Source of the DNA: Spizellomyces punctatus DAOM BR117
Lineage: Eukaryota
Reading direction: 5' to 3' (one strand)
Assembly (NCBI GenBank): GCA_000182565.2
Contig: KQ257454.1
DNA: 64,000 nt
Of this stretch, positions 19,573-42,991 are shown piece after piece. The position numbers were made by a program, and so were the translations under genes. Position 1 is the first letter of the stretch; each line of letters opens with the position of its first letter. The notes below the pieces were generated by a model. It saw only the letters and a program-made list of their open reading frames with translations, was not told the DNA's origin and ran no database searches.

Positions 19573-22500
19573 ATGTCACTCCTTTCTGATACACACGAGC
19601 AACTTGACTATCTCAAGAGTTTTGCGGGTATGCCTGCCCCAGCTGCTTTCCCCTTGCCTCCACCAGAGGCTGATGCGGTGCGGGAAGACAAACCAGACTC
19701 CATCACTTTCGAACTGCCAACGCAGCTGGTACAACAAGCGGGGAGATTGTCCCACACTCATTGTTGCGGAATCCGGGCGGTCTTGTACGCTGCTTGGGCC
19801 ATTGTTCATTCGCGGTACTTGAGTTCCGAAGATGTAACATTTGGAGCGGACATCGAGGACCAAGAAAGGCTTGATGGACCATTCTGTCCGCGACCTGTGC
19901 ACGCGGTACTGTCTGCTCATGATCTACAAGCGAGCAGATTGGTCCGTTCTATACACGAGGCGGTCTCCTCCGCGAACACCGGCCTTACGTCGCTTGATGC
20001 AATTCGCGAGGCGGCTGGAGTTTCGTCCGGCGAGCCCTTATTTCGACTTGCGATTGGATTCTGGGATTCTCGGGTGCTAGCTCAACTCACGAACGAACTC
20101 CCTCTGATTGTTTGCTTCGGAAAGCCAATAGCTGATGCACCCATTCAAGTCGAAATACTCTTTGCCGGGTCCGTCTTCGAGTATCGCGCGATGAAAGCGC
20201 TTGCTGGACATTTCTCCCAAGCATTGCAGGGTCTGGTCGGAGAAGGCGACCCTCGTGTAGCGGACATAAACATCTTGACACCGGAAGAGTCGAGAGTGAT
20301 TCTTCACGACTTCAACGACAACCGGCAGGAGGTGTTTGAAAATGACTTGGCTGCGCTAGACAAGTGGTGCATGCAGATTCCATTCGAAAAGAAGGTAATC
20401 TCTATCAAGTGAGAGCTTCTTGAGTGTGATGGATGCACCTCAACTTGGCGAATGCACTTTTCTTTTCTCCGTAGGTTAAGCAACACTCTGAAATGAATGC
20501 TGTCGAGCACTACCACCGTAGCATCACTTACGGGGAGCTAAATGCACACTCGAATCGCATGGCTCACGATCTCCGCCAAAAAGGCATCAAACTTGGAGCA
20601 CCCGTGGGTCTGCTCGTAACCCGATCGATTGAAATGATTGTTGGTTTTTGGGCAATTATCAAGGTAAGCCTACTTCCAATGGAGCTGTCTCAAGCGTCGT
20701 GATTTGATCACCCGTTAACCTTTGTGTTCTTCTCACCTTTTTCGTTGCAGTCCTCTGGGGCTTACGTCCCGATCGATGCTAGCTTTCCCCCTGCACGGGC
20801 GCAGTACATGCTGCAAGATGCAGGCTGCGTGGCTTTAGTCACAACATTGGCTGACGACAATCAAATACGTGCTTCCATGCCGTCTGACATGAACATTCCT
20901 GTGTTGAAAGTACAGGATTTCGGGAATGGACCCATCGACGTGGAAAACCCAACCTTAATAAACAACAGCGAAGACCTACTATACGTGGCCTATACTTCTG
21001 GAACAACAGGCCGACCAAAGGTAGTGGCCGATTCTAGTTGGCGCATCAGCACATTGCTCATCCCCAACTTAATGAAAACCGTAAACAACAGGGCGTCGAG
21101 ATTCCACATAGAGTCATGTATAACCTCATCCTTCATGGAGCGGGTGGTCTTGGGAACACTGACGGAACGAGAATGATGCAGTTCAGCTCAATTGGTTTCG
21201 ACAACCTCGGCTGGGAGATTTTTGCAACGCACTGCAGAGGAGGCACTCTGGTTGTGCGCCCCGACGATCTTGGAGAAGATTTCGAGCAAGCGTTGTATCG
21301 GATCGATACAATTCTTATCACCCCGTCCGCTCTTTCCATCGTAAGCCCGGACCAATATCCAAACATCAAGAAAATAATTGTTTCTGGCGAGCCCAGCAAC
21401 GCAGGGCTCACAAAGGCGTGGGGCGATAGAGTCATCTTGCTAAACGGTTATGGCCCGGCCGAAACCCACGCAACCCATATTGGTATCAATATTCCGGGGA
21501 AACCCATAACTGTCGGCCGCGTCATTCCTGGCGACACCTGCTACATCCTTGATGACCGGATGCGACCTGTTCCAATCGGAGGTGAAAAGAGTCTCCATGC
21601 CAATTTCTGTAACTTCAATTTTTAACTGAATCCTGCTCCGATTCCGTAACAGTTCCGGGTCTTATCTGGATCGGCGGCACTGGGGTCGGGAGGGGTTATA
21701 GAAATCTTCCTGACCTGACTGCCCAAAAGTTCAAACTTGACCCTTTCGCCAAGGACGGAAGCAAGATGTACAATACGGGCGATTTGGGCAGATGGACCAA
21801 CAGAGGAGAATTGGAAGTAATTGGCCGTGCGGATCATCAGGTCAAAATCAACGGTTTTCGGGTGGAATTGGGGGAAGTGGAAACAATCCTAGGGAAGTTA
21901 CCGTCCGTCAGCAATGTGGTCGTCTTGTTTGAGTCCAGACAGCTGGTTGGATTCATTTCGCCGCATACGTTGAACGTTGACATGCTGCGGAGCGAAATGA
22001 AAAAGGTAAAAGCTCTCTGCCTTACTGTCTGACTGTTGTTCTTGGAGTACTCAGAGGTGCTCGCGTTCGTTCAGATGCTGCCGTACTACATGGTCCCGTC
22101 CAAGCTTATTGCCCTTGAGGTGCTGCCAATGACTGAGAACCGCAAGGTGGACCGTCGGATGCTTGCGGCCATGCTACGCAGTGAAGCCACCGGTCGAGAT
22201 GCGGCTCTCCCAGCTTCTACGCCCCGTTTCGTCAACCGTTCCGCAGCTTCCGTGCGTCTCTCGCCTCAGGAGACCACAGTCGCTTACATCTGGGCGACGG
22301 TTCTGAAGATTCCCGTTGAGGGAATCACCTCTGAAACGTCATTTTTAGCCATCGGTGGTGATTCTATCTCAGCTATATTGGTGTCAGCCCGTCTGCGAAG
22401 AGTGTATGGGTTGTACATCTCCCCGACTGTGATTTTCGATAAGCATGTCTTGAAAGAGCTGGCTTCGCTTCCTCTACTCTCTCCGGCAAACCAAGCGGCA

Positions 22501-25500
22501 AAAGCAATGATGGAGACGGGCCCTGTGGAGGGCAGGGTGGAGCTGACTCCAATTCAGCACTGGTTTTTGGAATGGAAGCCGGTGAATCCCGATCATTACA
22601 ATCAAACCTTCCTCCTCATTCCCAATCAAAGATTGCTTCCAGAAACGGTTACCCAGACGATGAACGCTCTTGTCGCTCACCACGATATGCTTCGGGCGCG
22701 GTTCACTCTGGACCGGGAGGCAGGTACAATGGAGCAACGTATTCTCAACCTCCAAGACCATGCCCCGGTCGAGACCATGTCTTCTACCGCGGCGAACAGA
22801 ACTGAAATGCTAGAGAGGGTTTATGCGATTCAGCGAACGCTGAATTTGGCAGACGGGCCTATCATCGCCGCTGGATTGATCGATATGACGGATGGCCAGC
22901 AGCGGCTCGTCATAACCGTCCATCATTTGGTCATGGATCTGGTGTCCTGGCGCATCTTGCTCGAAGACTTCCAAAACCTTTATACCGGTGTGGATGGGCT
23001 GCCCCCCAAGACGACTTCATTTCAGACTTGGGCTCTCAAGCAAGCCGAGTACGCGCAAACCCTCGACCCCGAGTCATGGCCCAATACCTTCCCCACCCAG
23101 CCGCCAATACCTTCCGATTTTGCGGGCAATCCGACGCAGAAGAACCGCGCGAGCACGATGCACCGCCTTACTGTCGAGGTCCCGGCGACGACGGTGGAGA
23201 AGATCTTCTCTCAGGCCTTGCCTTTCTACCAATGCACTGTATTGGAGATTCTCGTGGCGGCATTAGCTCTTGCGTACGGCCAGCAGTTCGACCGCGACGT
23301 GTTTGCTGTCGATCTGGAAGGGCACGGACGCGAGCCTTGGGATGACGCTCTGGACACCTCACGAACTCTGGGATGGTTTACAACCACATTTCCAGTCTGC
23401 CTGCGCGCTCGTAACGTTGCAATGGATCAAGAAGGACACATGCCATTTGTAGATACCATAAAGAAAACGATTCGAGGCCTCCCGCTCAAAGGTCTTCCTT
23501 ACGGAGCTATGAGGTACCTGTCCAACAAGCCTTCAGCAAAGACGTTCGTTACCACACACCCTACTTCCGAAATCATATACAACTATTACGGGGCGTTCTC
23601 TCAACTGGAAGACAAGGCTAGCCTGCTTAGACTGGCCGGAGAAGAATATGCCAATGGGGAAGATGACTACGACGACTGCGAAATGAACCGATATCGATTC
23701 AGTATAGAAACCATCCAGCAGAACGGCATCCTAGAAACCCGTTTCTTGTACAGTGCGGCCGACTTTAGAGAAGAGACTGTGAGTGCTTTCGCTGCCAAGT
23801 GGCTGATGTTTCTCGACGTTTTCGTCGATGTTACCCATGTCCCCAGCTCTTCAGCGGACATTTCGATCGCCGACTCGACGGTGGTCAATGAAGCTCCACT
23901 CCGCCCATTTGAATTGCTCGGCATGGGGGAGGCTGAGGGACGTGCTTTTCTTCAAAATTTCCTCGAGGACCACCCGATTGATATGGATGATATAAAGGTA
24001 GGTCTGCCCTCAGCGCTTTGGTGTGGACCACTTGGCTCTCAGTAGTTAATCCTGTTTGCCGCATTAGGATGCAATGCCCTGTGTCCCGTTGCAGTCTGCC
24101 ATTGTGGCGGCCACAAAGCTAGACAGTTCCCAATACACCTGGCAAACGGTGTACAAGATTCATGGCTCATTGGATTCCGCCCGGTTCGAAAGTGCCTGGA
24201 GGGAGATCATCCATGCCAATGATATGCTCCGGACGACCTGCGGTTGGACCGCGGACTTGCATGGAGATACTAATGCAGTCCAGGTACTGTTGAAAAGCGA
24301 CCGATCTGAGTGGAAGAACATCGTTTGCGGAGAAGAAGGTATGGAAGCGACCCTGAAAGAGTATTTAAAATCAGACGAAGCCCGTGGTTTCCCTTCCGGC
24401 GACCCGTTCGTGCGGGCCTGTCTTTTATCCAAACCTGGGGAGCCATCTAGGTTAATTGTGACCGTCCACCATTCTATCATTGATCAGTGGTCCTTGAACA
24501 TGGTGGTTGATGACCTCCGTATACGATATCATGGCGGCATTCCAGCACCTTACACTTCATTCGCAAACTTCACCAAGTACATGATGGAGGAAGATTGGTC
24601 GAGAGCCAAATTATTCTGGACGGAGTATCTCCGGGGAACGAAGCGTGTGGAGTTTCCAAGGTCAGGGAGCTTCTGCTGCTCTCATGGACTATTGTCCGCT
24701 TTCTTCTCAAATTCCATTCGTAGATCACTCCCCAACGTCGCATGTCGGGCGACGAGGCATTTTGAAGCAAACATCTTGCTCGAGCTTGGTAACTTTGCTC
24801 GCGCTAAGGGCATAGCTGCGTCTGTACTGGTCAACGCAGCTTGGAGCATAGCTCTTAGCGCTCGTTCCGGAAAGAAGGACGTGGTTTTTGGCACTGTCTT
24901 TTCCGGGCGCTCTGCTCCGTTGGACGGAATCGAGCGGATTTGTGGGCCGTGTTTGAACACAGTGCCATTCAGGGCCACGATTTCTCATGGGACCACCATC
25001 ATTGACTTTTTGAAGGGACTACAGAGAGCATCTTCAGACATTATGGAATTTGAGTCGACACCAAAGTCGGTAGTGTCTGAAGCGGTGGGAATGGACTCGA
25101 GCAAACTGTTCAACACTTTAGTAGCTCTGCAGGTACGTGTTTACTTTATTGGACTGTATTTGGCAGGTGATGGCAAGGGATATACTAATACATTCACAGA
25201 ACGTTGCGGATTGGTCTAACAGACAGTGCACCGAGACTATTTCACTGGAAACAGAAAGCACCACTATGATCTCAGACATCTCTTTGTCCGTCGAGGTCAC
25301 TATATCCGCCGACGGCTTGAAGTTCGTGTTCCGATACGACCAGAAAGTTATTTCCCAAATTGAAATTGACCTACTCTTGCACCATCTCGCGGACGTCCTT
25401 TCGTATATGATTAATTTCCCGGATCGGCCTGTCGAGTCCATTCCCCTAGTAAGCGCTCAAGAGCACGGCATACTCCAGTCTTGGGCGCAGGGCCGCGATG

Positions 25501-28500
25501 CTCCCGTCCAGGGCGTCTTGCTACACGAGTTAGTGCAGTGGCGAGCGGATAACCACCCCGACACAATAGCGGCCGAGCTCTATCGTGGTGGAAAACTGAC
25601 CTACCGGCAGCTCATGGAAAACGCGAATCGCCTGGGTCATTATTTGCAACAGATGGGTGTGCGGCCTGACATGATGGTGCCAGTGTGCATGTCGAGGTCT
25701 TTTGATATGCTCGTTGGTCTCTTGGCTATTCTGGCCGCCGGTGGGGCCTACGTGCCGATTAGCGAAAAGATATCCCCTGAACGTATTCGAGACATTCTCA
25801 AAGCAACAAATGCTGCTGTAGTCGTTACAACCGAAAAGCTTTCCGGCCTCTTCCTTGCCGATTCGACTGACTCCAAGCCCAAATGCGTTTTGGTTGATGA
25901 GTTTAAGACTGAGCTTGCAAACTATCCGGCGACACCTGTGGTCACTCCTGGGCTATCTGAGGACAATCTGGCATATGTTCTTTTCACCTCAGGATCCACG
26001 GGCGAACCAAAAGGGGTAATGCTGGAACACGCCAGCGTCGTCAACTCCCTCCGTGCGCACACCCTGTGGAATGTCGGCCCACACTCTCGGGTTCTAAACG
26101 TGTCTCCGTACACCTTCGACCTTTCTGTGACGGATATATTCCTGCCTCTTATATCAGGTGGAACGGTTGTGCTTGCATCGGAAAACGATATTCAAAGCGA
26201 TTTGAGTCAGGTAATAAGGGAAGCACGTATTGACCATGTCGAGCTTGTCCCGTCGCTTGCGGATACGGTTGATCCCGCGTCGGTGCCTGAACTGAAGACA
26301 TTGGTCACCGCGGGAGAAATGTTAACAGAAGTGCTGGTGCAACGGTGGGCTTCGCGAGTCCGTTTGATCAATGGTTATGGACCAACAGGTACGTCTCCCT
26401 TCGCAGCATTCTGATATGATATCAATCCTACTCACCGCATCATCTTCAGAAACCACGATACACTCTCACATGAAGGTGGTTCAACCGAATGATTCTCCAT
26501 TACATATTGGCGCAAGCATTGGAGATGTAGCCACTTACATCTTGAAGGATGACCTCAGCCCGGTGCCTGTTGGGGTTGAAGGCGAGGTTTACATCGGTGG
26601 AACCCAAGTGTGCAGAGGATACCTAAACGGGACTGATTTGGACAAAGAGGCATTTGTATCCAACCCTTACAAGAAGGGTGGACGTCTGTATCGCACCGGC
26701 GACATTGCGCGCTTCCGACCTGACGGGACTCTGGAATTCGTGAGACGCAGAGGAAATCAAGTCAAAGTCAACGGTTTACGAATTGACCTAGAAGCGATTG
26801 ACAATGTCATCGCAAGAGAGGACGTCGTTGAATCCGCCGTGACTCAGCCGGTGAAGTTTAGAGGCAAACAGCTGCTTGTAGCATTCATTGTTGTTGGACA
26901 GAAAAGTAGCTCCGTCCGACTAGCGGTTGAGGCTCTTGAAAAGGCTATCGCTGCCAAGTTGCCCTCATACATGACACCGCGGCACTGGATTCCCCTTGAT
27001 GGTGAGAACTATATTTCATGCTGCAGGCATTGTTTTTTAATGAACGTCGCTAACATTTATGGCGTATCTCAGCGCTTCCGCTGAACGCTAATTTCAAGCT
27101 GGATCGTCGGGCCCTCCAAACGATCTTTTCGGCTGTTGATCTTGTGGCAATCAATACCCTCACGCGCGGTGCCAGCACCAGAAAACACCCTCCGGCGAGC
27201 CAACTGGAAAAGGATCTGCATGACATGTGGACTTTGACCTTGGGTCTTGAACCCTCAGATATAGGAACGAATGATTCTTTCTTCAATCTAGGAGGCGATT
27301 CTCTAGCGCTCATCAAGTTCGTCAATAATGCCCGTGCGAAAGGTCTCTCCATAACGTCATCAGATGTATGTGGTTCGTTAAAGATCCGTTGATTTTGGTA
27401 ACACCTCATTTCTCACCTTTGTGAACATAGTTTTTCGCCAACCCAACCATCGCATGTCTTGCGAAATTCCTTGAGAAAACCAGTCCCCCGGCTCCGGTCT
27501 TGACTGTCAAGCAGCAACCTAATGTGGCTGCGTTCAGCATGTTGACCCTTCCCCAACTGATGGAAATCAGTTCGAGGGACCTTCCCGCCCTAGATATCAA
27601 ACTTGAGGATATTGAGGACATCTATCCGTGCACTCCCATGCAGCGAAGCCTAGTGGCTGCGACAATAACGGGTGAGAGAGCCTCTTATCTCTCACAGATA
27701 GTCTACGAGTTTGAGAAGACACCGAATATCGATCGTTTCAAGAAAGCCTGGCGCGAGGTGATCCGTTCCAACCCGATTTTAAGGACGCTTTTTGTCGTCC
27801 CTCAGACAACCTCGAGCGACCTTCAATGCCTGCAAGTTGTAATGCGCGATGACCTCTCGTCGTGGACCGAGCATCAAATAACAGAGGGAGAAGAGCTAGA
27901 GAAGATTTTGTCCCAAGATCTGGAGAAAGGAGTGAAGCTCGGCTCGCCCTTCATGCGCTTTGCTCTGGTTCGTGCCCCTTCCGCAAACGTCAAGTTCATC
28001 TGGACCATTCACCACGCGCTATACGATGGATGGTCGACGAACATGATATTGGACGACCTAGAAGCTGCCTGTCGCGGTGAAGCGTTAACATTGCGGCCGG
28101 CCTATAAGGGATTCGTTCAATATTTGGTCCAGCAAGACAGGGAGAAGGCTGCCGAATTCTGGAGACAACAGTTGAAGGACTTTGCGGGAATGACCTTCCC
28201 GCGGTCGCCGTCATCCACCTACCAAGCGAAGAGTACCGGGAACTTGACCTGTGCCGTTAATGTGGATTTGGGCAAACATGCCAGGGAGCTTGGCGTTACG
28301 ATCTCAACTATTTTCCGTGCAACGTGGGCCCTTGTTCTTGCTTCCCATGCCAACACGAATGATGTGTCGTTCGCCTGCGTTAGTTCAGGACGCAGTGTTC
28401 CGGTAGACGATATTGAGTATATCAACGGCCCATGCATTACATGCGTCCCGGTCCGAGTCGTTTTGGACAAAAGCATGACTGCTACGAACTTCTTGCAGGT

Positions 28501-31500
28501 GCTACAGAAGCACCACCTTGACATGATGCAATATGAACATTGCAGTCTGATGGACGTGCTGAATTGCGGGCCTGGCTTGTCTGGCTTGAGCGGGCTGTTT
28601 ACGACCATGCTGGTGATTCAAAATCAACCCGAAGCTGTAAAAGACATGGACGCATCTGGTCTCAAATTTCTCAGAGCCGAGATGGGCATGGACAGTGGAC
28701 TCTGCCTTGAGCTTAAGAAAACCGACTCAGGATGGATGGTGGTGGTTGATTTTGATGAGGAGATTATTACTGAAGGAGAGCTCAAATGGATCATGGCTCA
28801 CGTCTGTCACGGCATCAAAGATCTGGTTCAACGCCCTAACGCCGCGCTCCGGGACATCCAGTTGAGCAGCCTGGAAGAAATGGAATTTCAGCGTACCCAA
28901 TGGGGTCGGCAGATCGTAGAGGTTGACGCGGATCTGTGCATTCATCAACTTGTTGAACGTCAGGTCGCGCGAACACCGCATAAAAATGCCGTAGAGTTTC
29001 TGAACGGCCCAACTTTGACGTATGCCGAGTTGAACTGTCGCAGCAACCTCCTCGCACGTCACTTGCAAGAAATTGGCGTTGGTCCAGAGGTCCTTGTGCC
29101 CATATGTGTTGGACGATGCATTGAAATGGTCATCGCGGTCCTTGGAGTGCTCAAGGCTGGTGGCGCTTACGTTCCGCTCGATCCCGATATTCCAGCGAAG
29201 AGGATCAACTTCATCATCGAGCAGACGAAGAGCACATTAGTGGTGACAACATCGAACCTTGTGTCCATCCTGCAAGCTACTCTGGAGGCAAACGTCATGG
29301 CGGTGGAACATGTTTTGTCTGACGATCCAGGCACACCTGTCGAGAACTTCAGCGTTCCCTCGCTCTCGTCAAGCAACCTTGCGTACATAATCTATACCAG
29401 CGGCTCCACCGGCGACCCGAAAGGAGTCATGATCCCCCATCGTGCAATTGTATCCGCAAGCGGCGGTTTTTGCGAGCGGTACTCTCATGGTGAAAGCGAC
29501 CGCCGCTTGAACTATGCCACTTTCACGTTCGACGACTGTGTTATGGATTTTTTTGCAACGTTGAGGACAGGTAAGGAAGACAGTTATCGTTCCGCAAAAG
29601 GTTCGGATCACTCAGTCAATGCTGTCCCCTAGGTGGCACGATCTGTATGGCCTCCAGGGAAGACCTTACAACCGACTTGGATGGCGTCATCGCCGAAATG
29701 AAGGTGACTTTCCTGGCTGCTACACCGTCTGTACTTGCCCTGCTTGATCCACGGCGGGTCCCTACCATGCGGGCTATGGATATTGGTGGGGAGCCTATGA
29801 TGCAGGAGCTTGTTGAACGCTGGGGAGGATTGGTTCATCTTGGTAATGGTTACGGACCGACGGAAACCTGCTGTCTCAGTCACTCCCACCGGCATTATAG
29901 CGACGAAAAGAACATTCATTTGATTGGGTATCCTTATCGAGAAGTTGCTCAGTACCTTCTCGACGACAAACTCAAGCCTGTACCTATTGGGTGCGTGGGG
30001 GAGATTTGTTTAGCAGGTCCGCAGCTGGGACGAGGATATCTGGGTCACCCAGAATTGACTTCCAAGGCATGGATTAACCATCCCCAGTTGGGATTGATAT
30101 ACCGAAGCGGCGATCTTGGGCGCTACTGGTACGACGGCCAGCTTATTATCTTAGGACGACAAGATGATCAAGTGAAGCTGCATGGATTACGGATCGAGCT
30201 TGGCGAAATTGAAAACGTTCTGTTAAGAGCACAAGAAGTCAAATATCTTGCGGCAGTCGTGATGACCCTTGCTGGAGAAAATGACAAAAGCCTTGTGTGC
30301 TTCTACGACCTGCACAGGTATCGAGATGAAAACCACAAATGCACTTTCCTCCCGTCAAACGACTTCGTGCAATCAGTCACTGGCGGTTTGATTACTCTCG
30401 CTCGGTCTGCGCTGCCCTATTACATGGTCCCATCCATGTGGGTCCCAATGACGCGGTTGCCCCTCAACAAGAATGGTAAGATTGACAAAAAGAAGCTTAA
30501 GCAGCTCACAGTGGTTCGCTCTAACAGAGAGACTGCCGAGTTGGAAAACCCGCAAAGCGACACTGAGCAGGAGATTTTTAACATCGTGAAAAAGCTGGTT
30601 GGGAATGAACACTTCGGTGTAGATGACGTCTGGTGGACAGTTGGTCTAAACTCGCTGTCGATGATTCGATTTGTGGGAACACTGAGGACCTCATTTCCTT
30701 CATCAGGTTTGACGATAACTGATCTTGTACCAAATGCAACTATCCGGCAACTCGCGGTTTACATAGACAAGTACGGGGGTCGAGGAGGGGGTGACACGAA
30801 CGCAGAAGCGAACTCACAAACAACAACCGAAGAGCGCTCGATGCTAGCGGACATAGGTCATGGCCGTTTCCCCGCCTCATTTACTCAAGAGCGAATGTGG
30901 CTAGCGCAGCAAATTTGGAATGACAGCACCTACCATATCCCAGAGCTAATGCGAGTTCGCCAACCGCTAAAGCCGGATCTTCTGATCAAATCAATGCACC
31001 TAGTGTGCCAGCAAAATGCGATTCTCCGAACCACGTTTGAATTCGATGGGGACAATGTGATGCAAATTGTAAATAAGAAGATTGACTATGAATTCAAGTC
31101 GCTTGACCTGACCGCGGAGGGCGATCCTCTTGCAGCGCTTCGAAAGCTATGCGCAGAGGACAATGCCACACTTTTCAACCTCAGCGATAAACCCGCCGTT
31201 AGATTCATGATCTTCGAGTTGGGCAGTAATGATTACGCTGTTTACCTCAATGTTCATCATATCATTGCAGATGAGTGGACCTTCGCTCTTTTACTGAACG
31301 AGCTCTCCCACACGTACGCGATACTCATACAACAGAAAGCGGACGTTGGTATCGGTCATGCCTCGTTGGAGTACGTCGATTTTACATTAGGGCAACGACG
31401 CCACCTGTCGGAGGTTGAAAGCCAGCAATTGGACTTCTGGGGAAATGCACTCAAGGACGTGGTCCCCGCAAAATTTCCGTCGTTGCAGAGCAACAAGATA

Positions 31501-34500
31501 GATGATAAGTCAGCAGCGAATAACGAAGAGCTTTTCCTGGACCCCGTAGTCGTGGAGGCGTTTCTAGCCGTCTGCAAAAGCCAAAATGCATCCCCTTACG
31601 TAGGCTGGCTGTCCCTTTTCCAAATTCTTGTTTACCGCTATTGTCAATCGACGGATTTCGCCATTTTGACACCTGTCACAAATCGAGCAGCGATTTACGC
31701 GGACGTGATGGGCTGCTTCCTGAACACGCTTGCGATCAGCACGAGACTTGAACCTGACCTCCCGTTTGTCAACTACCTCCGACAAAACATGCAAGTTGTG
31801 AACGAGCATCTGGCTAACATGGATGTACCCTTCGAAAGAGTCATCAGCGAAGTGTACGGAAAGGAAGCACGGCTAATGTTGTCGGAGTTCCAGGTTATGT
31901 TTGCCTACGTTACCGACAACAAATACGTCGCGGATCAGCAGAACATCTTCCAAGACGCGGAGCAGCTGCCTATTAATACCGAGCGAAGGGGATATTACGA
32001 TGTAGCTCTCTCTCTCGTAGAAGGTCGCGGAGAAAATCAAGTCTCAATTAGAATTGAGTGTAACGGGCACTTGTATGACTCCAGGTACATCCGAGCACTC
32101 GCGGGACACTTCCAAGAATTGTTGCTGTCCATTACGAGGAAACCTTCGACGGCCATCGGCTCACTGCGGATGGTCCCAAAAGAGGAAGAGAACTTACTCA
32201 TCAGAAACGAGTATGTGTGCAACACCTGCGATGAGACCGAAACGTTTCATGGCTTGTTTGAAAGGCAGTGCATTAAGACCCCTCATTCAATCGCCCTGGA
32301 GCATCTTGATGGCAGAAGTGTGACGTATGCGGAACTAGATGCGAAGGTAGATGACCGTTCGAGCTGCGTCCGGTTGCTTTTCCTCCGAACTCACTGACAA
32401 ATCCCATTTTCAGGCCAATTCAATTGCGCGGTTCCTGCGATCCGAAGGCGTTCCCCTTGAAACACCTATAGTGTTATGCCTCGACAAATGCTTCGACGCC
32501 GTGTGGTGGATGTTGGGAGTTACTAAAGCTGGGTGTTGCTGGGTACCAATAGAGCCTGCAGCCGTAGCCGAGAAACAAGATCTGATCATTCGCGCGGCGA
32601 AGGCACCATTTGTTGTCACAACCACCAAATACTCGGCTGACTTCCGCCGCGCAGGACACAGAGCTATCGAAGTGGACGTAGAGGACATTGTTTCGAAAAT
32701 GCCAACCTCGCCGGTTGAAGCACTGCACGTAACATCGGGCTTGTTGGCATATATTCTCTTTACCTCGGGGACCACGGGAACACCAAAAGGTGTCATGGTG
32801 GAGCATCGGGCTGCTGTTAAGTTTATCGACCTTTGCGCAGACGAGCTTGGAACGACTGAAAGTACTCGCGCCCTCAACTTTTCAACGTATACCTTCGACC
32901 TCTCCATCCTGGATATTTTCTGCACGCTTGCAAGAGGGGGCACCGTTTGTGTTGCACCTGCCGCGGAGATGCACGGCAATTTAGCAGCAGTAGTTCGAAA
33001 CCTTTCTGCGAACGCTCTCACTCTCACACCCACCGTGATATCCCTGCTCTCTCCGGAAGAAGTTCCATCTCTGAAAGTTCTTTGCTCAGCAGGCGAGCCT
33101 ATCACGCAGACGATTGTGGCGACGTGGTTCCCATATCTCGACAGGCTTCTTAATGCGTATGGTGAGTGCGGACTGCACATTTGACACCTCTAAATAATTT
33201 TGCTAATTCCAGTGTAGGTCCCACGGAAACGGCAGTTACAACTATTTGTCGGCCGGATCCGTCCACGTTTCCTACCATTATCGGAGGGGCTGTCGGTTCC
33301 AGCTTATGCCTAGTCGTCGATGAAAGGATGAATCTAGTGCCCATTGGCGTCAGTGGCCAGTTAGCGGTAGGAGGAGGTCATTTGGCGAGGGGCTACCTCA
33401 ACCGGGCAGATCTCACCAGGGAGAAATTCATCGACAATCCTTTTGTGCCCAGAACACGCATGTATCTGACAGGTAAGCAACGGGCCCCTTGGAAGGTCTC
33501 CTGCGGATTTAAGTTTAAGTTGATCGTCACACTTCCGCGCCTTAGGTGACCGTGTCAGATTGCACGCCAATGGGCAGTTTGAATATTTTGGTCGCATCGA
33601 CAATCAGGTGAAAATAAACGGTCGACGGACGGAGCTAGGTGAAATCGAGCACGCAATCTTGGAGGTCCGCTGCGTTCGAAATGCATGTGTTGTCTTGCAA
33701 ACCGGAGACAATGCCTCTCTTATCGGCTACGTTACATTCAAAGATGTTAGCGGAACTGTTGCCCAGATAACGGACGGATCAAAGGATCAAGACCTGGAAG
33801 CTATCCGATCTCTCTTGAGGAAGAAACTCCCACCGTACATGGTACCGCGAAAATTGATACCGATGGCAGATTTCCCTCTGAGCAAGGCTGGCAAGATCGA
33901 CCGCGGCAAACTCCGGTCATGGAGGTTCCTTGAACAAAAGCCAGCGCAAGCACAGAGTGATAGAAAAAGAGAATCCAAGGACTACGAGCACGAATTGCTG
34001 GGGCTTGTGGCTCAGATCGTGAACAGTGCGGACATCGACCCAGACGATGACTTGTCCGCGGTCGGTTTGGATTCTTACGGCATGATGCGCCTGATGCTAC
34101 GTATACGAAAGACCTACCAAGTGGAATTGACGGTGTCCGAAATTCAGAAGTGTTCCTCCGTAGGCTCTCTTTGTAATTTGATTTCCCGCAAAAGAGAGTC
34201 CGGTCACAACGACAAACAATCAGCTTTGGAGATTTCCCTACTCCGAACGATAGCTGACTTACTCAAGTATGACGTGATTGAGGCGGAAGACAATTTAATT
34301 GCCAATGGATTAGAATCATATGCCATCATGCGACTTATTTCGCGAGTCAGGAAGGAGTTTAACATGGACTTGACGATTTCGGAGGTGTCAGCAAACCCCT
34401 CGGTCCGCTCACTCGCTGCACTTATCAGCAGGAAGCGACATCCACGCTCTGACACTGTATCCGAAGAATCTGCTACGATTGCCCAGGAGAAACAATATCC

Positions 34501-37500
34501 AGCATCCTACACCCAAGAGCGCATGTGGGCAGCGCAGATAGCCCACGGCGACAATGCCTATCACTTGGCCAAGCTGGTTGTCGTGGAATCCCTGTTGGAT
34601 TGCGAGCTCCTCGTCAAAGCGATGGAGGCTGCCTGCCGGAGACACACCATCATGCGGACGACTTACAAGCTAAATTCTGATTTTTCGGAACTAGTGCAGG
34701 TCATCAGGAGGAATCTGCCTCTTAACTTTGAGATCGTTGACCTGGCTCAATCTGCGGATGCCGTTGAGGAAATGAAATCTCAATGCCGAGCGGACAACCT
34801 GATTCTGTTTGACTTATCGACTGAAGCTCCAATCAGGTTCAGAGTGTTCAAACTAGGCCAAGCAACCGGTGTCTATCTCAACATTCATCACATTGCCGTG
34901 GACGAATGGGGGCTCAACCTTTTGCTCGATGAGGTGACTTTGATTTACCACCATTTGGTAGCAGGCCGATCGGTGAGCCTGGAGCCCGCCATGCAATTTG
35001 TACCTCTTACTTTGAGGCATCGCCAGCTTCTTGAGGCGAACAACAGAGAGCTCTGGAACACCCAGTCTCGCTTTGCTTCATATCATGTGAGATACCCACC
35101 ATTGATCTGTCGGAGAGTCAACGTCTGCCGGATGGCGGCAGGGGAACTGCTGTTTGGAGTGAAGAGGTGCCTTTGGACCAGGCAGCCACAAAGCGATTCC
35201 TGGAGCTCTGCTCAAACGCAGCGGTCTCTCCTTTCACTGCATATCTTTCCCTTTTCCAGACTCTTATTGCCAGGTATGTTATACGCTATCGCGGATTTCA
35301 TGTAACTCTTACTAAACGTAATCCTTGCCAGACAAACTGGGCAGTACGATTTTGGCGTCGTGACACCTGTGAGCCTCCGTAGCAATGTTCGAGAAAGCTT
35401 TACATCTGTCGGCTGCTTCATCAATACAGTCGTGGTCCGCGCCCAGCTTGAGGAACACGACTCGTTTAAGGATGTTTTGAAGAAAACAAGGGTGAACATT
35501 AACCGAGTCCTTGAAAACAGCGACATTCCATTCGAGACGGTCATGACCTCAAAAGGGATTTCACCATCGACCTTACAGCTCATGTTCGACTTCACTACCT
35601 CGAGTGGGCCTCAAAGCGAGCATAATATTATAGCTCGTGGAACGGAGCTGGATCTAGACAGTACTACCACCGCTCACTTTGCGTTTACCTTCAATGTCGA
35701 TGCCAGGGGCAGCCCTAAAACTCCGACATTGATATCCATACAGTACGATGGCAAATTTTTTGAAGCGCAATTAGTGGAAAAGATGTTGGGAGACTACGCG
35801 AAGCTGCTCGACGTGGTAACCTCTAGTCCAGACGACCGAATTGCCACGCTCAACCAGTGCGAGGGTGAGGAGAACCTGATTCTGCGGGGTCCAGTCGCGC
35901 CATTGCCGTACGATTGTATCCACCACGGCTTTGAACTGGCGGCTGTTTCTCATTCCCAGCGGATCGCCATACAGCACGGCGATCGCAACCTAAAGTACCG
36001 AGAGCTGGACAAGAAAGCGAATGCTGTGGCCTGTCGGTTGCGCGCATTTGGAGTCCAACCAGGCATCTACGTGGCAATAGTAGTGCACAGATCCATTGAG
36101 ATGGCAGTGGCACTGCTTGCAACCTTGAAGGCTGGCGGAGTGTGTGTGCCTATCAGCGCCGACTTCCCCACGGATCGCATCAAGTATATTTTGCAGACGG
36201 TCTCGACCAGGATCGTGTTGACTACGAGGGACGCTTATGACATTGTTCCGTCGCTGGATGCAACGACGTCATGCCATTTGATTGAAGATTTGGCATCCCA
36301 GAATGAAATGGATGAGAAACCAGACGACCTTAGTACTGGAAATACCATTGCGTACTGTATTTTTACGTGAGTACATGAATGGCTATCTCCGAAGTCGCTG
36401 AACTCGCCAATAAGTAGCTTTCATATTCCCATCATTAGGTCGGGAACAACTGGAACACCCAAAGGAGTCATGGTGCCTCATAAGGGAATTGTCAATAACA
36501 TCCTGCACCACCCATTCACGTGCCATTGCAAGCCCGGAGTTAAAGTTGCACAAATGCTGGGAATTTCATTCGACGGCGCACTGCAAGAACTGTACGGAAC
36601 ATGGTTCACGGGGGCCACATTGGTACTTCGCGAGGAAGACATCTTCAAGACTCTCAGAAACGTGGAGTGCATAAACTTGACTCCAACGGGAATCATGCAG
36701 ATGGAGCCAAGCGAGTTTCCCAACCTCAAGGTGGTCCTGGCTATTGGAGAAGCTTGTCCGGACTCGCTTGTGAAGAAGTGGGGTAATCACGTCAATTTCT
36801 ACGTCGACTATGGGGCGGTAGGTTTTTTGGGAGATCATCCAGTAAACCGTATCGTGGTCTCACCTGGACCGCTTTTCAAATATCTTTTAGACCGAGACTT
36901 CCGTTACCACCTCCTGCACACCACCTTTGAAACCCGGGATTCATATCGGTATTGGCAAACCTTTCGCCAATAATTCTTATTACGTGCTTGACAAGAAGCT
37001 GAGACACGTACCAGTGGGCGGGAAGGGACAGATACACGTTGGAGGCATCGGAGTGTCACTGGGCTACATCAACAACCCGGAACTTACGGCATGCAAGTTC
37101 TTGCGGGATCCCTTCAGCAAGACCGGAGGGAGGATGTATGCTACCGGAGACATGGTGCGAAGACTTGCGAATGGGGAACTCGAGTTTGCCGGTAGAGTGG
37201 ACGATCAAATCAAACTTGGAGGCTACCGGGTGGAGCTCAACGAAGTCACCTCGGCACTTCTACGAACGCCGGACGTTGGCCTGGCCGCTGCAATTGTCCA
37301 CGAAAGTGTTCTGATTGCATTCGTTAGCCCGTCCACAGTGAACTTGGACGGTCTCAAGAAGAGCATAGAAAAGTTCCTTCCACCGTACATGATTCCGGGG
37401 AAATTTGTTGCTATCGATGAATTCCCACGCACGTTTAACGGCAAAGCCGACGTGAGACGCTTGCGCGAGGAACTCAAGAACCAGCAATCCAGCACGTTTG

Positions 37501-38739
37501 ATTCCGTCATGACGAACACGTTGAGAGATTTTCGACAGCAGCTGCTCGCGCAAATCTGGTCGACGATACTCAAGGTCGACATGGATCGCATTAGGCCTGA
37601 AACTTCCTTCTTTGAGTTGGGCGGTAACTCAATGTCTGCGGTTCGGATGATACTAGCAGCCGGTCAGCAGGGTATCAAATTGACTCTCGCGGACGTGTAC
37701 CAGAAACCCACACTGGCAGCACTCGCACCTGACTCGATTGGAGCGAAGGCAGCAACTCAGCTGTTGAACAGCGGTCCCTCGAGATCAACTCCAAAAAAGA
37801 TCTCATCATCGGTGACAGCAATCCCGTCCAGCTACACGACGCAATTAGAACAGCCTCATAAGAAACCCGAACCAAACGTTCTAACCAGAGCGTCGCCCGG
37901 CGCAAAGAAACTGCGTGTCTTGTGCTTGCATGGCTCGGAAACGAGTGGGAAAATCTTATCCCTTCAATTGCAAGCCCTTCAACAGAAACTGCAAGACCAA
38001 GTCCAGTTCTACTTTGTCGATGGACCACGGAAACAGTACACGTCCTGTAAGTGTGGGAACACCAAAAAAGGTCAATGGCTACCTACTGACTCTGTCTCTC
38101 TTTTTCCCTCCAGATATTTCAAAGTACTTTGATGGCCCCTACTTCCGCTGGCTGCCAGCTTCCTCATATGATGTCGGCGAACGCAGCGCCATGGCGGCCG
38201 TGAACCACCTCATAAACAAGATGGACGCGATCGGAGGGCAATTTGACGGAATTTTAGGATTCTCGGAAGGAGCCAGCATTGTGGAGCTGGTAGATCGTCT
38301 GAGCACACAAGGACGCATTGCCCGAAAATGGAATTTCAGTGTCTTGATCAGTGCATGTACCGTGAAGGTTTCTTCTCCTGGTGCCTCATCATGGCTTCGA
38401 CGTCCTTTTGAAGGAGGATACCTGCGCCTTCCCTCCGTCCACGTTATTAGCTCCAAGGACTACCTGTTCCGAAAAAGCATGAAAGTCGAATGTCGCTACG
38501 AACCAGAGCTACGACATGTGGTCACGCATGACAGCGGACATCAGATCCCTCAAACACCCGGATTCATCAAGCAGTTGGCTGACCGGATTCTAGATGCAGC
38601 TGCGTTGGCTGAAGATCTCTCCTTAGCCTTCCCAACTCACAAAATAGACGACGAGTTCGAGTTTGTGAAGAGGAGCAAGGCAAAGGGCGGGTGGTTGCGG
38701 ACAATACGCCGTGCTATCAAGAATTCAATGATCTCTTGA
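19573..38739 (+). CDS. Five-module NRPS: C(half)-A1-T1-E-C-A2-T2-C-A3-T3-C-A4-T4a-T4b-C-A5-T5-FSH1 hydrolase; ~19 introns, one apparent frameshift at ~35055-35090
   Basis: Five (Y/F)TSG(T/S)TGxPKG A3 motifs. T serines: GGDS (~22354, ~27291), GLNS (~30643), GLDS (~34064), GLES (~34306), GGNS (~37619). E domain HHLVMDLVSW...EGHGRE...RTLGWFTT. C domains HHSIIDQ, HHALYDG, HHIIADE and HHIAVDE. GT-AG introns join all ORF-track pieces in frame except at ~35.07 kb. Confidence 0.96.
37911..38600 (+). other. C-terminal FSH1/DUF341 (LovG-like) serine hydrolase domain of the NRPS
   Basis: LRVLCLHGSETSGKIL...YFVDGP...FDGPYFRW...FDGILGFSEGA...LPSVHVISSKD...HDSGHQIP gives a Ser/Asp/His triad. It is in frame with T5 in ORF 36927..38132 through a Ser/Thr/Pro-rich linker. 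Confidence 0.88.
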
Positions 38740-38990
38740 ATAGAAGTAACAGATGAAAAGCAATCCTCATAGAGAGTTATTGTAGAATACATAGTAGGAG
38801 TAGAAGATGATGCCTCATCATTATGTCACTTTGTACATGATTTTTTGATTTTCACTTAATCACATCCCCAAAAAGCCATCCATTTCCACGACTAGCGAGA
38901 TTATTTTAGACAAAAGATGCAGACGAAATAGATCCTGAAGCCATCAATTGGTATAAGGAAAGGCGACACCAACCGAACGACGTGTGTTCT

Positions 38991-39679
38991 GACAAGCTTG
39001 TAGCGCGGATTCAGGGCTTTCTAGAACCACTTTGGTCTTGTCAATATGTTAATAATTCGCTAACTTTTTCAATTTACCATCCCATGACATTTCCGATGAA
39101 ATCAATCAGCTAATTCCAACAGTCACCACTTGAACAAATATTCTGTCTTTAAAACACGTGTTGGATCATTAGTACTGTATAGCGCCGACAAATCAGATGT
39201 GTTTATCGCGCCCCAAACAAGTCCACTGGCAAAGACTATCGAACAAGTCAACAAATGAAAGGGCAGATGAGAATATGATGACTACGTCACTTTTGAAGTC
39301 CATGGGCTGAAAATGACATTCTATTCAGATACAATACAAGGGCTGGCGAAAGAACTATTATGCTGCCACATTAGTTGAGCTTGGTTGGTATGTACCCAAT
39401 GGCATTTCTTTTCATTCTGTCATTCATCTCGCTGACATGCAGTCTTTTTAGTCTCCAAGCCTTGTCACTGAACATCCTCTGGCTTGTGACGCTGCCCAGT
39501 CGATTCGCTCCTGGATGCAAGAGTCTGGCTTGAATGCTCCGGATCAAGGCCCAGTAGGGACCGTGTGGTGGTGGGCAATTATCCGGTTAGAACCAACCGT
39601 TACGTATTGCGTGTATAACTGCCTACAAGTAGTTAGTTAGCTTTTCCGGACCGGTTGTCGCCGGTTTATCCCTGGTGTA
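38991..39679 (+). repeat. Copy 1 of a ~0.6-0.7 kb gene-like repeated unit (degenerate)
   Basis: Matches 39739-40357 over blocks GACAAGCTTG...AATTCCAACAGTC and CTATTATGCTGCCACAT...CCCTGGTGTA. Confidence 0.85.
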
Positions 39680-39738
39680 GTAGCTAGTGCCAGTTTCTGT
39701 CACCTCTACACTAAGACAACTACCTAAGAAAGTGTTTT

Positions 39739-40357
39739 GACAAGCTTGCAGGGCTTTCTAGAACCGTTTTGCTCTTGTCGATAGGTTAATAGCTCGCCTA
39801 GTTATTCAAGTTACTGTCCCATGACAATCTCGATGAAATCGATCAATTAATTCCAACAGTCCCCTTCCCCCCATCTTGTTTCTTTATCCCTCGATGCAAG
39901 CATCTGCCCAATGCTCAAGCACTCTCTCAAGTCCATCATGAGAATTCTGCTCTGGTGCCGAGGACCTCATCCACCTGACAACAGTGATCAGAACCAGCTG
40001 CAACCAATTGGATAGGTTGACAAAGCTGCTATTATGCTGCCACATTTGTTGAGCTTGGTTGGTATATACCAACAGCATTTCTTTTCATTCTGTCATTCTG
40101 TCACTGACATGCAGTTTTTTTAGTCTCCAAGCACTTGTCACTGAAGATTCTCTGGCTTGTGACACTGCCCAGTCGATTCGCTCCTGGATGCAAGAGTCTG
40201 CTATCAAGAGTTCCAGACCAGAGCCTAGCAGGGACCGCGTGTGGTAGTGGACAATTATCCGGTTACAACCAACCGTTGCGTATTGCGTGTATAATTGCCA
40301 AGTAGTAGTTAGCTAGCTTTTCCGAACCGGTTGTCGCCGGTTCATTCCCCTGGTGTA
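39739..40357 (+). repeat. Copy 2 of the repeated unit (degenerate, in-frame stops)
   Basis: Tandem with copy 1. It also carries ATGAGAATTCTGCTCTGGTGCCGAGGACCTCATCCACCTGACAA, homologous to the start of the inverted copy at 41121. Confidence 0.85.
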
Positions 40358-40840
40358 CGAGGCGTTGACATTTGTTTTTGCCAATACACTACTGACAGTG
40401 CCATACGGTATCCTAAACTCAACGTCCCCCATAAATAAGCCGTGTCATGCTGTCGCCTTTGGATGCTGGATGCGAGACGAATGTACTGGGATCTCCTTGG
40501 CAATATACGCTACTATCCATTGTATCCAGTGACTTATGCATCCATTTATATTGAAAAGCACTTAGTGATAAGGTTTGGATGCTGGCGGTGACGATTTTTT
40601 TTTTTTTTCTGAAGAATGAACGGTCTACATTAGTGTGCAGGTGGTAGAAAATGTCACTAGGGACAAAATTCTCCCTCCAACCCACTACAGCCGGTTCTAA
40701 TTTACAATTAGCCAGCCTGTCCAACCCTTCATAACCTATCCTGCAAACGAGTCCCACCCCTATCCTAACTCGCTACAGGTTCCAGCCTGGGTTGAACTGG
40801 GGTACGTGCAAAGCAGCACGATTCCACTAACTAACTACCA

Positions 40841-42920: not shown

Positions 42921-42991
42921 GGTTTGAGTAGGTTGGCAGGATTGGAGTAAGTGAGGAGAGCGAGAAGGAGAGCTGTTGACATTTATAAGAC

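What the first reader, a model, noticed from the sequence alone, without database searches (positions are those of the whole stretch)
37530..38739. NRPS terminated by a fused FSH1/LovG-type serine hydrolase
Seen: T5 (GGNS) continues in frame through a ~60-aa linker into CLHG...GFSEG...D...GH, with an intact catalytic triad. Established: fungal NRPSs normally release product through CT, R or occasionally TE domains, whereas FSH1/DUF341 hydrolases such as LovG are usually stand-alone, trans-acting releasers for polyketide synthases. Inference: this is an unusual in-cis release domain for a peptide assembly line, acting by hydrolysis or macrocyclisation.
Basis: partly seen in the sequence, partly recalled or inferred. 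Interest (0 to 1): 0.82.

Follow-up and report, generated by a model that had tools for sequence, protein, structure and literature searches.

The report
Chytrid-type NRPS ending in FSH1 hydrolase
A large intron-rich fungal peptide synthetase really does end in a fused FSH1-type serine hydrolase where a thioesterase would normally sit, but this ending is the usual one in chytrid fungi, was noted in 2010, and has not been found tested at the bench.

Summary
One uninterrupted reading frame (36891-38046) holds the end of the last adenylation domain, carrier domain T5 (GGNS), a 59-residue linker with no Met, and the first strand of an FSH1 domain (CLHG). A 67-nt GT-AG intron (38047-38113) joins it to the rest of the domain. 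Pfam calls PF03959 on both exons and finds no thioesterase PF00975. The Ser/Asp/His triad is intact.

A-T-FSH1 termini are not rare: among the best 150 relatives of the hydrolase part, 23 have a carrier domain just upstream and 4 more sit at the end of an NRPS. All 21 that carry an organism name come from Chytridiomycota (17) or Calcarisporiella thermophila (4). These domains form one clade apart from stand-alone FSH1 proteins. Bushley and Turgeon (2010) already recorded T-C-T-A-T-FSH1 in Batrachochytrium dendrobatidis. My searches found no biochemical study.

The most likely role is release of the peptide in cis through an acyl-enzyme; hydrolysis versus cyclisation stays open.

Caveats: the window as written has a frame break in the fifth condensation domain (35073-35088), which a DNA contig from another run repairs. 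RNA data were too thin to show splicing.

The parts
19573..38739 (+). Whole NRPS gene, about 5,990 codons with 18 short GT-AG introns. Order of domains: partial C, A1-T1-E-C-A2-T2-C-A3-T3-C-A4-T4-T4'-C-A5-T5-FSH1.
   Evidence: Pfam scans of the stop-to-stop pieces. HHxxxD and carrier-domain motifs. Intron candidates at every frame break. The start Met is inferred and has no RNA support.
35073..35088 (+). Frame discrepancy inside condensation domain C5. The window is a net 4 nt shorter than a DNA contig of run X5.
   Evidence: (tables 3 and 4) lists the differences. Searches show that the X5 version gives an open frame carrying the conserved C-domain RFW..YL motif seen in P0094, whereas the window version runs out of frame to a stop at 35303-35305.
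35274..35331 (+). 58-nt intron (GTATGT...CAG) that returns the corrected C5 frame to the frame of 35306-36367.
35933..37445 (+). Adenylation domain A5 with its C-terminal subdomain. It is interrupted by introns 36367-36417 and 36818-36890.
   Evidence: Pfam AMP-binding and AMP-binding_C. Introns.
37542..37727 (+). Carrier domain T5. The phosphopantetheine Ser of GGNS lies at 37629-37631.
   Evidence: PF00550, E 4.7e-15. Motif position.
37728..37904 (+). 59-residue linker, rich in Ser/Thr/Pro/Lys, with no Met and no stop.
   Evidence: Translation.
37905..38046 (+). First part of the FSH1 domain (strand 1 with LCLHG, helix 1, strand 2), in the same exon as T5.
   Evidence: PF03959 profile positions 3-46, E 1.1e-8.
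38047..38113 (+). Intron of 67 nt, GTAAGT...CCAG.
   Evidence: The junction aligns without a gap to homologues. No RNA joint was seen.
38114..38571 (+). Second part of the FSH1 domain. It carries nucleophile Ser 38263-38265 (GFSEG), Asp 38458-38460 and His 38539-38541 (HDSGHQIP).
   Evidence: PF03959 profile positions 67-209, E 1.3e-15. Alignment to 1ycd. Clade alignment.
38572..38739 (+). C-terminal tail of about 55 residues after the Pfam match, then the TGA stop at 38737-38739. Only the closest relative, P0004, shares part of the tail.
   Evidence: P0004 aligns to query residues 38-195.

Best explanation
The window carries a five-module, intron-rich NRPS of an early-diverging (chytrid-type) fungus. 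Its last carrier domain, T5, is joined through a flexible 59-residue linker to an FSH1-family alpha/beta-hydrolase domain. That domain sits where bacterial and some fungal NRPSs have a type I thioesterase.

The most likely mechanism has three steps:
1. The finished pentapeptidyl thioester on the T5 phosphopantetheine arm enters the FSH1 active site.
2. The GFSEG serine, activated by the His/Asp pair, takes the chain as an acyl-O-enzyme.
3. The chain is released either by water, giving a linear acid, or by an internal nucleophile, giving a macrocycle.

Shown here: the fusion, the family assignment, the intact triad, and the recurrence of the architecture as one clade. Inferred: that the domain is the release catalyst. 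Open: hydrolysis versus cyclisation.
For: - T5 and the first FSH1 strand lie in one stop-free exon, and the linker has no Met.
- PF03959 is called on both exons above the curated cut-off. No PF00975, reductase or terminal C domain follows T5.
- The Ser and His align with the catalytic residues of yeast Fsh1, 1ycd.
- In the 36-row clade alignment the nucleophile is Ser in 33 rows and Cys in 3. The acid column is Asp or Glu in 29, and the other 7 have Glu one residue further on. His is kept in 35 of 36.
- Of the 20 relatives scanned with Pfam, 17 carry NRPS domains (A, T or C) directly upstream of the FSH1 domain.
- Local phmmer finds a T domain within 200 residues upstream of FSH1 in 23 of the 150 listed relatives. 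In most of these fused proteins FSH1 is followed by 0-17 residues.
- All T-fused rows, the window and 4 further NRPS rows form one clade. Support is SH-like 99 in FastTree on 116 rows and SH-aLRT 88 in IQ-TREE on 66 rows.
- An AlphaFold model of the T-FSH1 homologue P0010 (pLDDT 89.2) finds yeast FSH1 1ycd as its best solved match (E 1.8e-10). The next matches are the PCP-thioesterase didomains 3tej and 8w2d.
- The neighbourhood looks like a biosynthetic cluster: PPTase, ABCC transporter, TauD dioxygenase, ATP-grasp and Abhydrolase_3.
Against: - No biochemical data exist for any T-FSH1 terminus; the literature searches are listed in the full report.
- RNA coverage of the gene was at most 0.63x and no splice joint was listed, so transcription through T5-FSH1 is not shown.
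- As written, the window has a frame break in C5 (35073-35088) upstream of A5-T5-FSH1. If it is real in this strain, the terminal didomain would not be translated.
- A separate Abhydrolase_3 gene lies 4 kb downstream and could be the true release enzyme.
Confidence: 0.65

Rival explanations
1. The FSH1 domain is not the product-releasing catalyst. Instead it is an editing or rescue hydrolase (like a type II thioesterase) that clears misprimed or stalled T domains, or an acyltransferase that hands the chain to another acceptor. Final release would then be done by another enzyme of the cluster, such as the Abhydrolase_3 protein.
For: - FSH1 relatives in fungal polyketide clusters are often dispensable or have unclear roles. 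FUS5 is reported as not essential in the passages of PMC10512364 read.
- An Abhydrolase_3 gene (42989-44173) and an ATP-grasp gene (41526-43028) lie next to the NRPS.
Against: - The domain sits in cis at the extreme C-terminus, directly behind the last T domain, in most of the fused relatives.
- None of the 20 proteins scanned shows another terminal release domain at E<=1e-5.
- Known editing thioesterases are stand-alone proteins (general knowledge, recalled).
Confidence: 0.2
2. This particular copy is a decaying or inactive gene. The frame break at 35073-35088 is real, so A5-T5-FSH1 is not made in this strain.
For: - The window sequence leaves the C5 frame at about 35073 and meets a stop at 35303-35305.
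- RNA depth over the gene is near zero.
Against: - A DNA contig from run X5, which carries the same species label, differs by a net +4 nt at exactly this place. That version restores the frame and a conserved C-domain motif.
- Everything downstream (A5, T5, FSH1, triad) is intact, and every other frame break has a canonical intron.
- The X5 contig has a depth of only 3.8, so this is not proof.
Confidence: 0.1
3. The fusion is an artefact of reading the DNA: the hydrolase is a separate gene or transcript that merely abuts the NRPS.
For: - No RNA joint or continuous transcript was observed.
- In Fimicolochytrium jonesii the closest relative is annotated as a separate 171-residue protein, P0004.
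Against: - The first FSH1 strand is in the same stop-free exon as T5, and no Met lies between them.
- P0004 begins inside the domain, lacks the first strands and the CLHG motif, and so looks like a truncated gene model.
- The same fusion is annotated independently in 21 named proteins from many species.
Confidence: 0.03

Closest known systems
Chytrid NRPSs with a C-terminal FSH1 domain, e.g. Batrachochytrium dendrobatidis BDEG_03514.1 (T-C-T-A-T-FSH1; Bushley and Turgeon 2010, PMC2823734) and the database proteins P0024/P0162 (B. dendrobatidis), P0031 (Spizellomyces punctatus) and P0094 (Phlyctochytrium arcticum)
   Same: All share the A-T-FSH1 terminus, and their FSH1 domains fall in one clade. 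They share the triad motifs LHG, GFSxGA and GHxIP. P0094 is colinear with modules 3-5 of the window NRPS at 38-46% identity.
   Different: The number of modules differs: the window has five plus an E domain, while the Bd protein has one or two. The window's linker is longer (59 residues) and it has a C-terminal tail of about 55 residues. None of these proteins has a known product or assay.
Yeast Fsh1 (PDB 1ycd) and the stand-alone FSH1/OVCA2 serine hydrolases (PF03959)
   Same: They belong to the same Pfam family. The GxSxG Ser and the GH His align. 1ycd is the best solved structural match of the homologue model.
   Different: These are stand-alone proteins of about 220-250 residues. They fall outside the NRPS-fused clade and are not known to act on carrier-protein thioesters.
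LovG, the trans-acting hydrolase that releases dihydromonacolin L from the lovastatin PKS (Xu et al. 2013; recalled, and cited in PMC10512364)
   Same: It is an alpha/beta-hydrolase of the FSH1 type that cleaves a carrier-protein-bound thioester in a secondary-metabolite assembly line.
   Different: LovG is a separate protein acting in trans on a polyketide synthase in Ascomycota. The domain here is fused in cis to a peptide synthetase. Sequence relatedness to LovG itself was not tested, because no LovG sequence was available from a tool.
Type I thioesterase domains of NRPS termination modules (PF00975; e.g. EntF PCP-TE 3tej, SulM PCP-TE 8w2d, SrfA-C 2vsq)
   Same: They share the position after the last T domain, the alpha/beta-hydrolase fold, a Ser(or Cys)/His/Asp triad and the presumed acyl-enzyme mechanism. 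PCP-TE didomains are the second-best structural matches of the T-FSH1 model.
   Different: It is a different sequence family: PF00975 gave no hit at E<=1. The closest fold is FSH1 and the acyl-protein-thioesterase/carboxylesterase group, not TE.

Membership tests
FSH1 serine hydrolase family (Pfam PF03959) | A match to the family HMM above the curated gathering score. | tested here: met
   exon 2 scores 58.1 bits (E 1.3e-15) and the exon 1 part 35.5 bits (E 1.1e-8), against a cut-off of 21. The profile positions matched, 3-46 and 67-209, are complementary.
FSH1 serine hydrolase family (Pfam PF03959) | A Ser/Asp/His catalytic triad with the Ser in a GxSxG turn. | tested here: met
   The GFSEG Ser and the GH His align to yeast Fsh1 1ycd. 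Asp 38458-38460 lies in the acid column, which is Asp or Glu in 29 of 36 clade rows. Catalysis itself was not tested.
FSH1 serine hydrolase family (Pfam PF03959) | An alpha/beta-hydrolase fold closest to the solved FSH1 structure. | tested here: inconclusive
   The test was met for the homologue P0010: pLDDT 89.2 and best PDB match 1ycd at E 1.8e-10. The window's own spliced protein could not be folded.
NRPS type I thioesterase (Pfam PF00975) | A match to the Thioesterase HMM. | tested here: not met
   One search gave no PF00975 hit at E<=1 on either exon. One search gave none at E<=1e-5 in the 20 relatives scanned.
NRPS type I thioesterase (Pfam PF00975) | Located directly after the final carrier domain of the assembly line. 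| tested here: met
   This is a likeness in position and probable role, not family membership.
Chytrid-type NRPS with T-FSH1 terminus (architecture noted by Bushley and Turgeon 2010) | An A-T didomain followed by FSH1 at the C-terminus of an NRPS. | tested here: met
   for the window. for the relatives.
Chytrid-type NRPS with T-FSH1 terminus (architecture noted by Bushley and Turgeon 2010) | The FSH1 domain groups with those of other NRPS-fused members rather than with stand-alone FSH1 proteins. | tested here: met
   A clade of 37 rows has SH-like support 99. The same 36 rows (second copy of P0005 left out) form one side of a branch with SH-aLRT 88. The window's nearest rows are P0004, P0011 and the Calcarisporiella proteins.
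LovG-type trans-acting release hydrolases | A stand-alone protein acting in trans on a PKS. | tested here: not met
   The domain is fused in cis to an NRPS.
LovG-type trans-acting release hydrolases | Close sequence kinship to LovG. | not tested
   No tool gave a LovG sequence, and the LovG paper (PMC3844545) is not held.

The most novel reading that the evidence does not exclude
FSH1 termini are a distinct, lineage-wide class of NRPS off-loading domain. They would have been recruited once in early-diverging fungi (Chytridiomycota and Calcarisporiella), independently of TE, CT and R domains. Natural Ser-to-Cys nucleophile variants (P0006, P0009, P0052) hint that some members do chemistry other than plain hydrolysis, such as macrocyclisation or formation of a strained ring. 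The window's five-module enzyme with one E domain would then make a released, possibly cyclic, pentapeptide containing a D-residue, whose kind has not been seen from chytrids.
Probability: 0.5. Interest if true: 0.65.

Novelty: new member of a known kind. Interest (0 to 1): 0.45.

Why it matters
NRPS release domains decide whether a peptide leaves as an acid, a macrocycle, an aldehyde or something else, and they are prime tools for engineering. The textbook list is TE, terminal C/CT and R. Here a fourth, unrelated hydrolase family occupies that position across an entire, chemically almost unexplored fungal phylum that includes the amphibian pathogens Batrachochytrium. It has not been assayed. 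Characterising one T-FSH1 didomain would define the off-loading logic for all of these enzymes and help predict chytrid metabolites. For this window itself the finding is not a surprise: it is one more member of that group.

Tried and rejected
- **RNA evidence.** One RNA run with the same species label (X11) was laid, about 6 in 100 of its reads. Depth over the NRPS body was 0-0.63 and no joints were listed, so it neither confirms nor refutes the 38047-38113 intron or a continuous T5-FSH1 transcript. Contigs of two RNA libraries (X1, X2) hold three exact pieces of 151-270 nt within A5/C5 exons, but DNA carry-over cannot be excluded.
- **Longer homologues.** The search for homologous proteins with 'longer' searches only up to 2000 residues, so it missed the long NRPSs. 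It found only P0003, a KS_C-FSH1 fragment.
- **Own genome.** No genome is held for this window, so other FSH1 or NRPS copies in the same organism could not be counted.
- **LovG paper.** PMC3844545 is not held.
- **Window protein structure.** Folding the window's own spliced T5-FSH1 was not possible, because joined sequences are not accepted. A homologue was folded instead.
- **RNA family downstream.** An Rfam scan of 38600-40500, aimed at the read pile downstream of the stop codon, gave 0 matches.
- **Ordinary TE.** Considered and rejected, because PF00975 gave no hit.
- **Pseudogene full of stops.** Considered and rejected, because every break but one is a canonical short intron.

Full report
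**Observation.**
On the + strand, the stop-free frame 36891-38132 translates to the following, in order:
- the end of an adenylation domain;
- a carrier domain with the motif GGNS;
- a Ser/Thr/Pro/Lys-rich stretch;
- the sequence around LRVLCLHGSETSG.

Pfam assigns these parts as follows:

| Residues of the 385-residue translation | Pfam family | E-value / score |
|---|---|---|
| 1-59 | AMP-binding | 2.1e-7 |
| 118-185 | AMP-binding_C | 1e-6 |
| 218-279 | PP-binding | 4.7e-15 |
| 339-381 | FSH1 (PF03959), profile positions 3-46 | 1.1e-8, 35.5 bits, cut-off 21 |

A GTAAGT...CCAG intron of 67 nt (38047-38113) moves the frame by one into 38114-38736. That exon matches FSH1 profile positions 67-209 (E 1.3e-15, 58.1 bits). 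No Thioesterase (PF00975) hit appeared at E<=1.

The linker and the first FSH1 exon contain no Met, so the hydrolase cannot begin as an ATG-initiated ORF of its own. The Ser is at 38263-38265, the Asp at 38458-38460 and the His at 38539-38541. phmmer aligns the Ser and His with those of yeast Fsh1, 1ycd (the match is weak overall, E 0.3, but falls on the catalytic motifs).

**The gene.**
The NRPS is broken into 17 or more stop-to-stop pieces, but they are exons. Every frame break has a canonical GT-AG intron of 44-87 nt in the right phase.

Pfam on the pieces, together with HHxxxD and carrier-domain motifs, gives this domain order:
- a partial C domain at the N-terminus;
- A1-T1-E, where the E is called from an HHLVMDLVSW-type motif (this E-domain signature is recalled, not tested);
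- C-A2-T2;
- C-A3-T3;
- C-A4-T4-T4';
- C-A5-T5-FSH1.

The total is about 5,990 codons from a presumed start at 19573.

One break is not an intron. Between about 35073 and 35088 the window leaves the C5 frame. Read laying reports that a DNA contig of run X5 (same species label, depth 3.8) differs there by substitutions and a net +4 nt. Applying those differences in a script gives an open frame with the conserved C-domain motif seen in the colinear homologue P0094. A 58-nt intron (35274-35331) then follows. I read this as a local assembly error in the window, but a real frameshift in this strain is not excluded.

**Neighbours.**
The surroundings look like a biosynthetic cluster:
- a 4'-phosphopantetheinyl transferase (3833-4453, - strand);
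- an ABCC-type transporter (about 9036-13818, - strand);
- a TauD-type dioxygenase (17845-18390, + strand);
- an ATP-grasp protein (41526-43028, - strand);
- an Abhydrolase_3 protein (42989-44173, + strand);
- an MFS transporter (56313-57860, + strand).

**Relatives.**
An exhaustive HMMER search with the 207-residue second exon found 250 representative proteins at E<=1e-3; the best 150 were listed. The top of the list is dominated by very long proteins that match at their extreme C-terminus. Examples are P0006 (5540 aa, match 5372-5536), P0011 (6600 aa), P0014 (5693 aa), P0015 (4728 aa) and P0094 (5471 aa).

- **Pfam on 20 of them, those of 5000 aa or less.** All 20 have FSH1. Seventeen carry A, T or C domains upstream, one (P0003) carries a ketosynthase C-terminal part, and two have FSH1 only. 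None has PF00975 at E<=1e-5.
- **The six representatives over 5000 aa.** These could not be scanned with Pfam, but they give 54-74 tblastn HSPs each against the window NRPS.
- **Local phmmer with the window's T5.** This finds a T domain within 200 residues upstream of FSH1 in 23 of the 150. Eleven more have other N-terminal extensions, four of which are NRPSs by Pfam. The remaining 116 are stand-alone in size.

**Names.**
Twenty-four of the 28 fused proteins were looked up: 19 of the 23 T-fused proteins, the 4 further NRPSs and P0003. P0022, P0032, P0116 and P0141 were not looked up.
- Twenty-one carry organism names.
- Seventeen of these are Chytridiomycota: Batrachochytrium dendrobatidis and B. 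salamandrivorans, Spizellomyces, Chytriomyces, Globomyces, Geranomyces, Thoreauomyces, Phlyctochytrium, Quaeritorhiza, Zopfochytrium, Physocladia, Polyrhizophydium, Terramyces and Dinochytrium. Lineages were checked for two genera only (Fimicolochytrium, Quaeritorhiza); for the other genera the phylum is recalled.
- Four are from Calcarisporiella thermophila, phylum Calcarisporiellomycota.

The closest match to the window domain (62% identity) is a 171-residue Fimicolochytrium jonesii protein that starts inside the domain and looks like a truncated gene model. The window therefore probably comes from a chytrid of the Spizellomycetales neighbourhood.

**Tree.**
- **FastTree.** FSH1 envelopes of 114 of the 150 hits were used; 36 that covered fewer than 150 query positions were dropped, among them the T-fused P0141. 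The two copies in P0005 were entered separately and the window was added. All 23 T-fused rows, 4 further NRPS rows, 1 N-extended row, 8 short stand-alone rows and the window form one clade with SH-like support 99. Two other large groups contain only stand-alone or otherwise extended proteins.
- **IQ-TREE quick search.** The input was 66 rows: the 36 clade rows plus 30 others drawn at random, after leaving out 6 long-branch rows and the second P0005 copy. It recovers exactly the same 36 rows as one side of a branch (SH-aLRT 88). It places the window with P0004, P0011 and the Calcarisporiella proteins (SH-aLRT 95).
- **Named outgroup rows.** One is an oomycete protein (P0043) and one an Aspergillus 'serine hydrolase FSH' (P0045).

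**Active site across the clade (36 rows).**
- The His of the LHG motif is kept in 31, with 5 gaps from fragments.
- The nucleophile is Ser in 33 and Cys in 3 (P0006, P0009, P0052).
- The acid column is Asp in 12 and Glu in 17; the other 7 have Glu one residue later.
- The catalytic His is kept in 35, with Ile in P0034.

The splice junction of the window aligns gap-free to the homologues, which supports the intron boundaries.

**Structure.**
The model has mean pLDDT 89.2, with a disordered linker at residues 99-106. Foldseek against the PDB ranks the matches as follows:
1. yeast FSH1 1ycd (E 1.8e-10, TM 0.62-0.63 on the target);
2. the PCP-thioesterase didomains 3tej and 8w2d;
3. carboxylesterases and acyl-protein thioesterases.

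**Literature.**
Nine full-text searches were run. They found one paper that mentions the architecture: Bushley and Turgeon 2010 (PMC2823734; passages read). It reports a B. dendrobatidis NRPS (BDEG_03514.1) with T-C-T-A-T followed by an FSH1 (IPR005645) serine hydrolase domain, and lists 'FSH/SH' among C-terminal domains.

- 'PF03959' together with 'NRPS' gave 0 papers.
- Passages of PMC7466969 and PMC9730576 on early-diverging fungal or Bd NRPSs do not mention the domain.
- That LovG has the same domain structure as an FSH1-domain protein comes from passages of PMC10512364. The LovG paper itself was not available, so what I say of LovG's activity is recalled.
- Supplements were not consulted.

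**RNA.**
The RNA run of the same species label (X11) gave 275 laid reads. Depth over the NRPS was 0-0.63 and no joints were listed. A 13x pile lies just past the stop codon (38740 to about 39030), in the opposite mate orientation to the few reads on the gene body. It is unexplained; Rfam finds nothing there.

**Mechanism and rivals.**
The case for cis-acting chain release through an acyl-enzyme rests on four points:
- the domain's position;
- the absence of any other terminal release domain;
- the conserved nucleophile and His;
- the clade-wide fusion.

Hydrolysis versus cyclisation cannot be decided from sequence. An editing or transfer role with release by another enzyme remains possible (about 0.2). 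A pseudogene in this strain is about 0.1, and an annotation artefact about 0.03.

**Verdict.**
The claim of rarity fails, because this is the standard ending of chytrid NRPSs and was noted in 2010. The domain class remains biochemically untouched, and that is where the residual interest lies.

Noticed in passing
window 35073-35088: The window differs from a DNA contig of run X5 by several substitutions and a net 4 nt. Only the X5 version keeps the C5 condensation domain in frame. This is probably a local assembly error in the window record.
   Followed up: yes
window 38740-39030: A pile of RNA reads (13x, against 0.63x or less on the NRPS) starts exactly after the NRPS stop codon. Its mate orientation is opposite to the reads on the gene body, and it has loose ends at 38740/38741, 38984 and 39021/39028. 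It may be a small spliced transcript on the other strand or a 3'-tag effect. There is no Rfam match.
   Followed up: partly
P0006, P0009 (Calcarisporiella thermophila) and P0052: In these NRPS-clade FSH1 domains the nucleophile Ser is replaced by Cys (GFCQG / GYCQG). In classical NRPS thioesterases, Cys nucleophiles go with unusual ring-forming release (recalled).
   Followed up: no
P0003 (538 aa, ENA metagenome fragment): This fragment has a ketosynthase C-terminal part followed by an FSH1 domain, so FSH1 is also fused to PKS-type modules. It falls outside the NRPS-fused clade.
   Followed up: no
P0005 (Globomyces sp., 834 aa): It contains two identical copies of the T-FSH1 unit in tandem (FSH1 at 218-428 and 624-832). 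This is likely an assembly or gene-model duplication.
   Followed up: no
window 33524-35302 (residues 157-306 of that piece): Module 4 carries two carrier domains in tandem (T4-T4').
   Followed up: no
window 3833-4453 (-), 9036-13818 (-), 17845-18390 (+), 41526-43028 (-), 42989-44173 (+): Cluster-like neighbours of the NRPS: a PPTase, an ABCC transporter, a TauD dioxygenase, an ATP-grasp ligase and an Abhydrolase_3 hydrolase. The ATP-grasp and Abhydrolase_3 frames overlap head to head by about 40 nt as stop-to-stop ORFs.
   Followed up: partly
window 38572-38736: A tail of about 55 residues follows the FSH1 domain and ends in a basic, amphipathic-looking stretch. Only the Fimicolochytrium relative P0004 shares part of it. 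Its function is unknown.
   Followed up: no
window 10252-10351 and 45095-45700: Two runs of N (100 and 606 bases). The first lies inside the ABC transporter gene.
   Followed up: no
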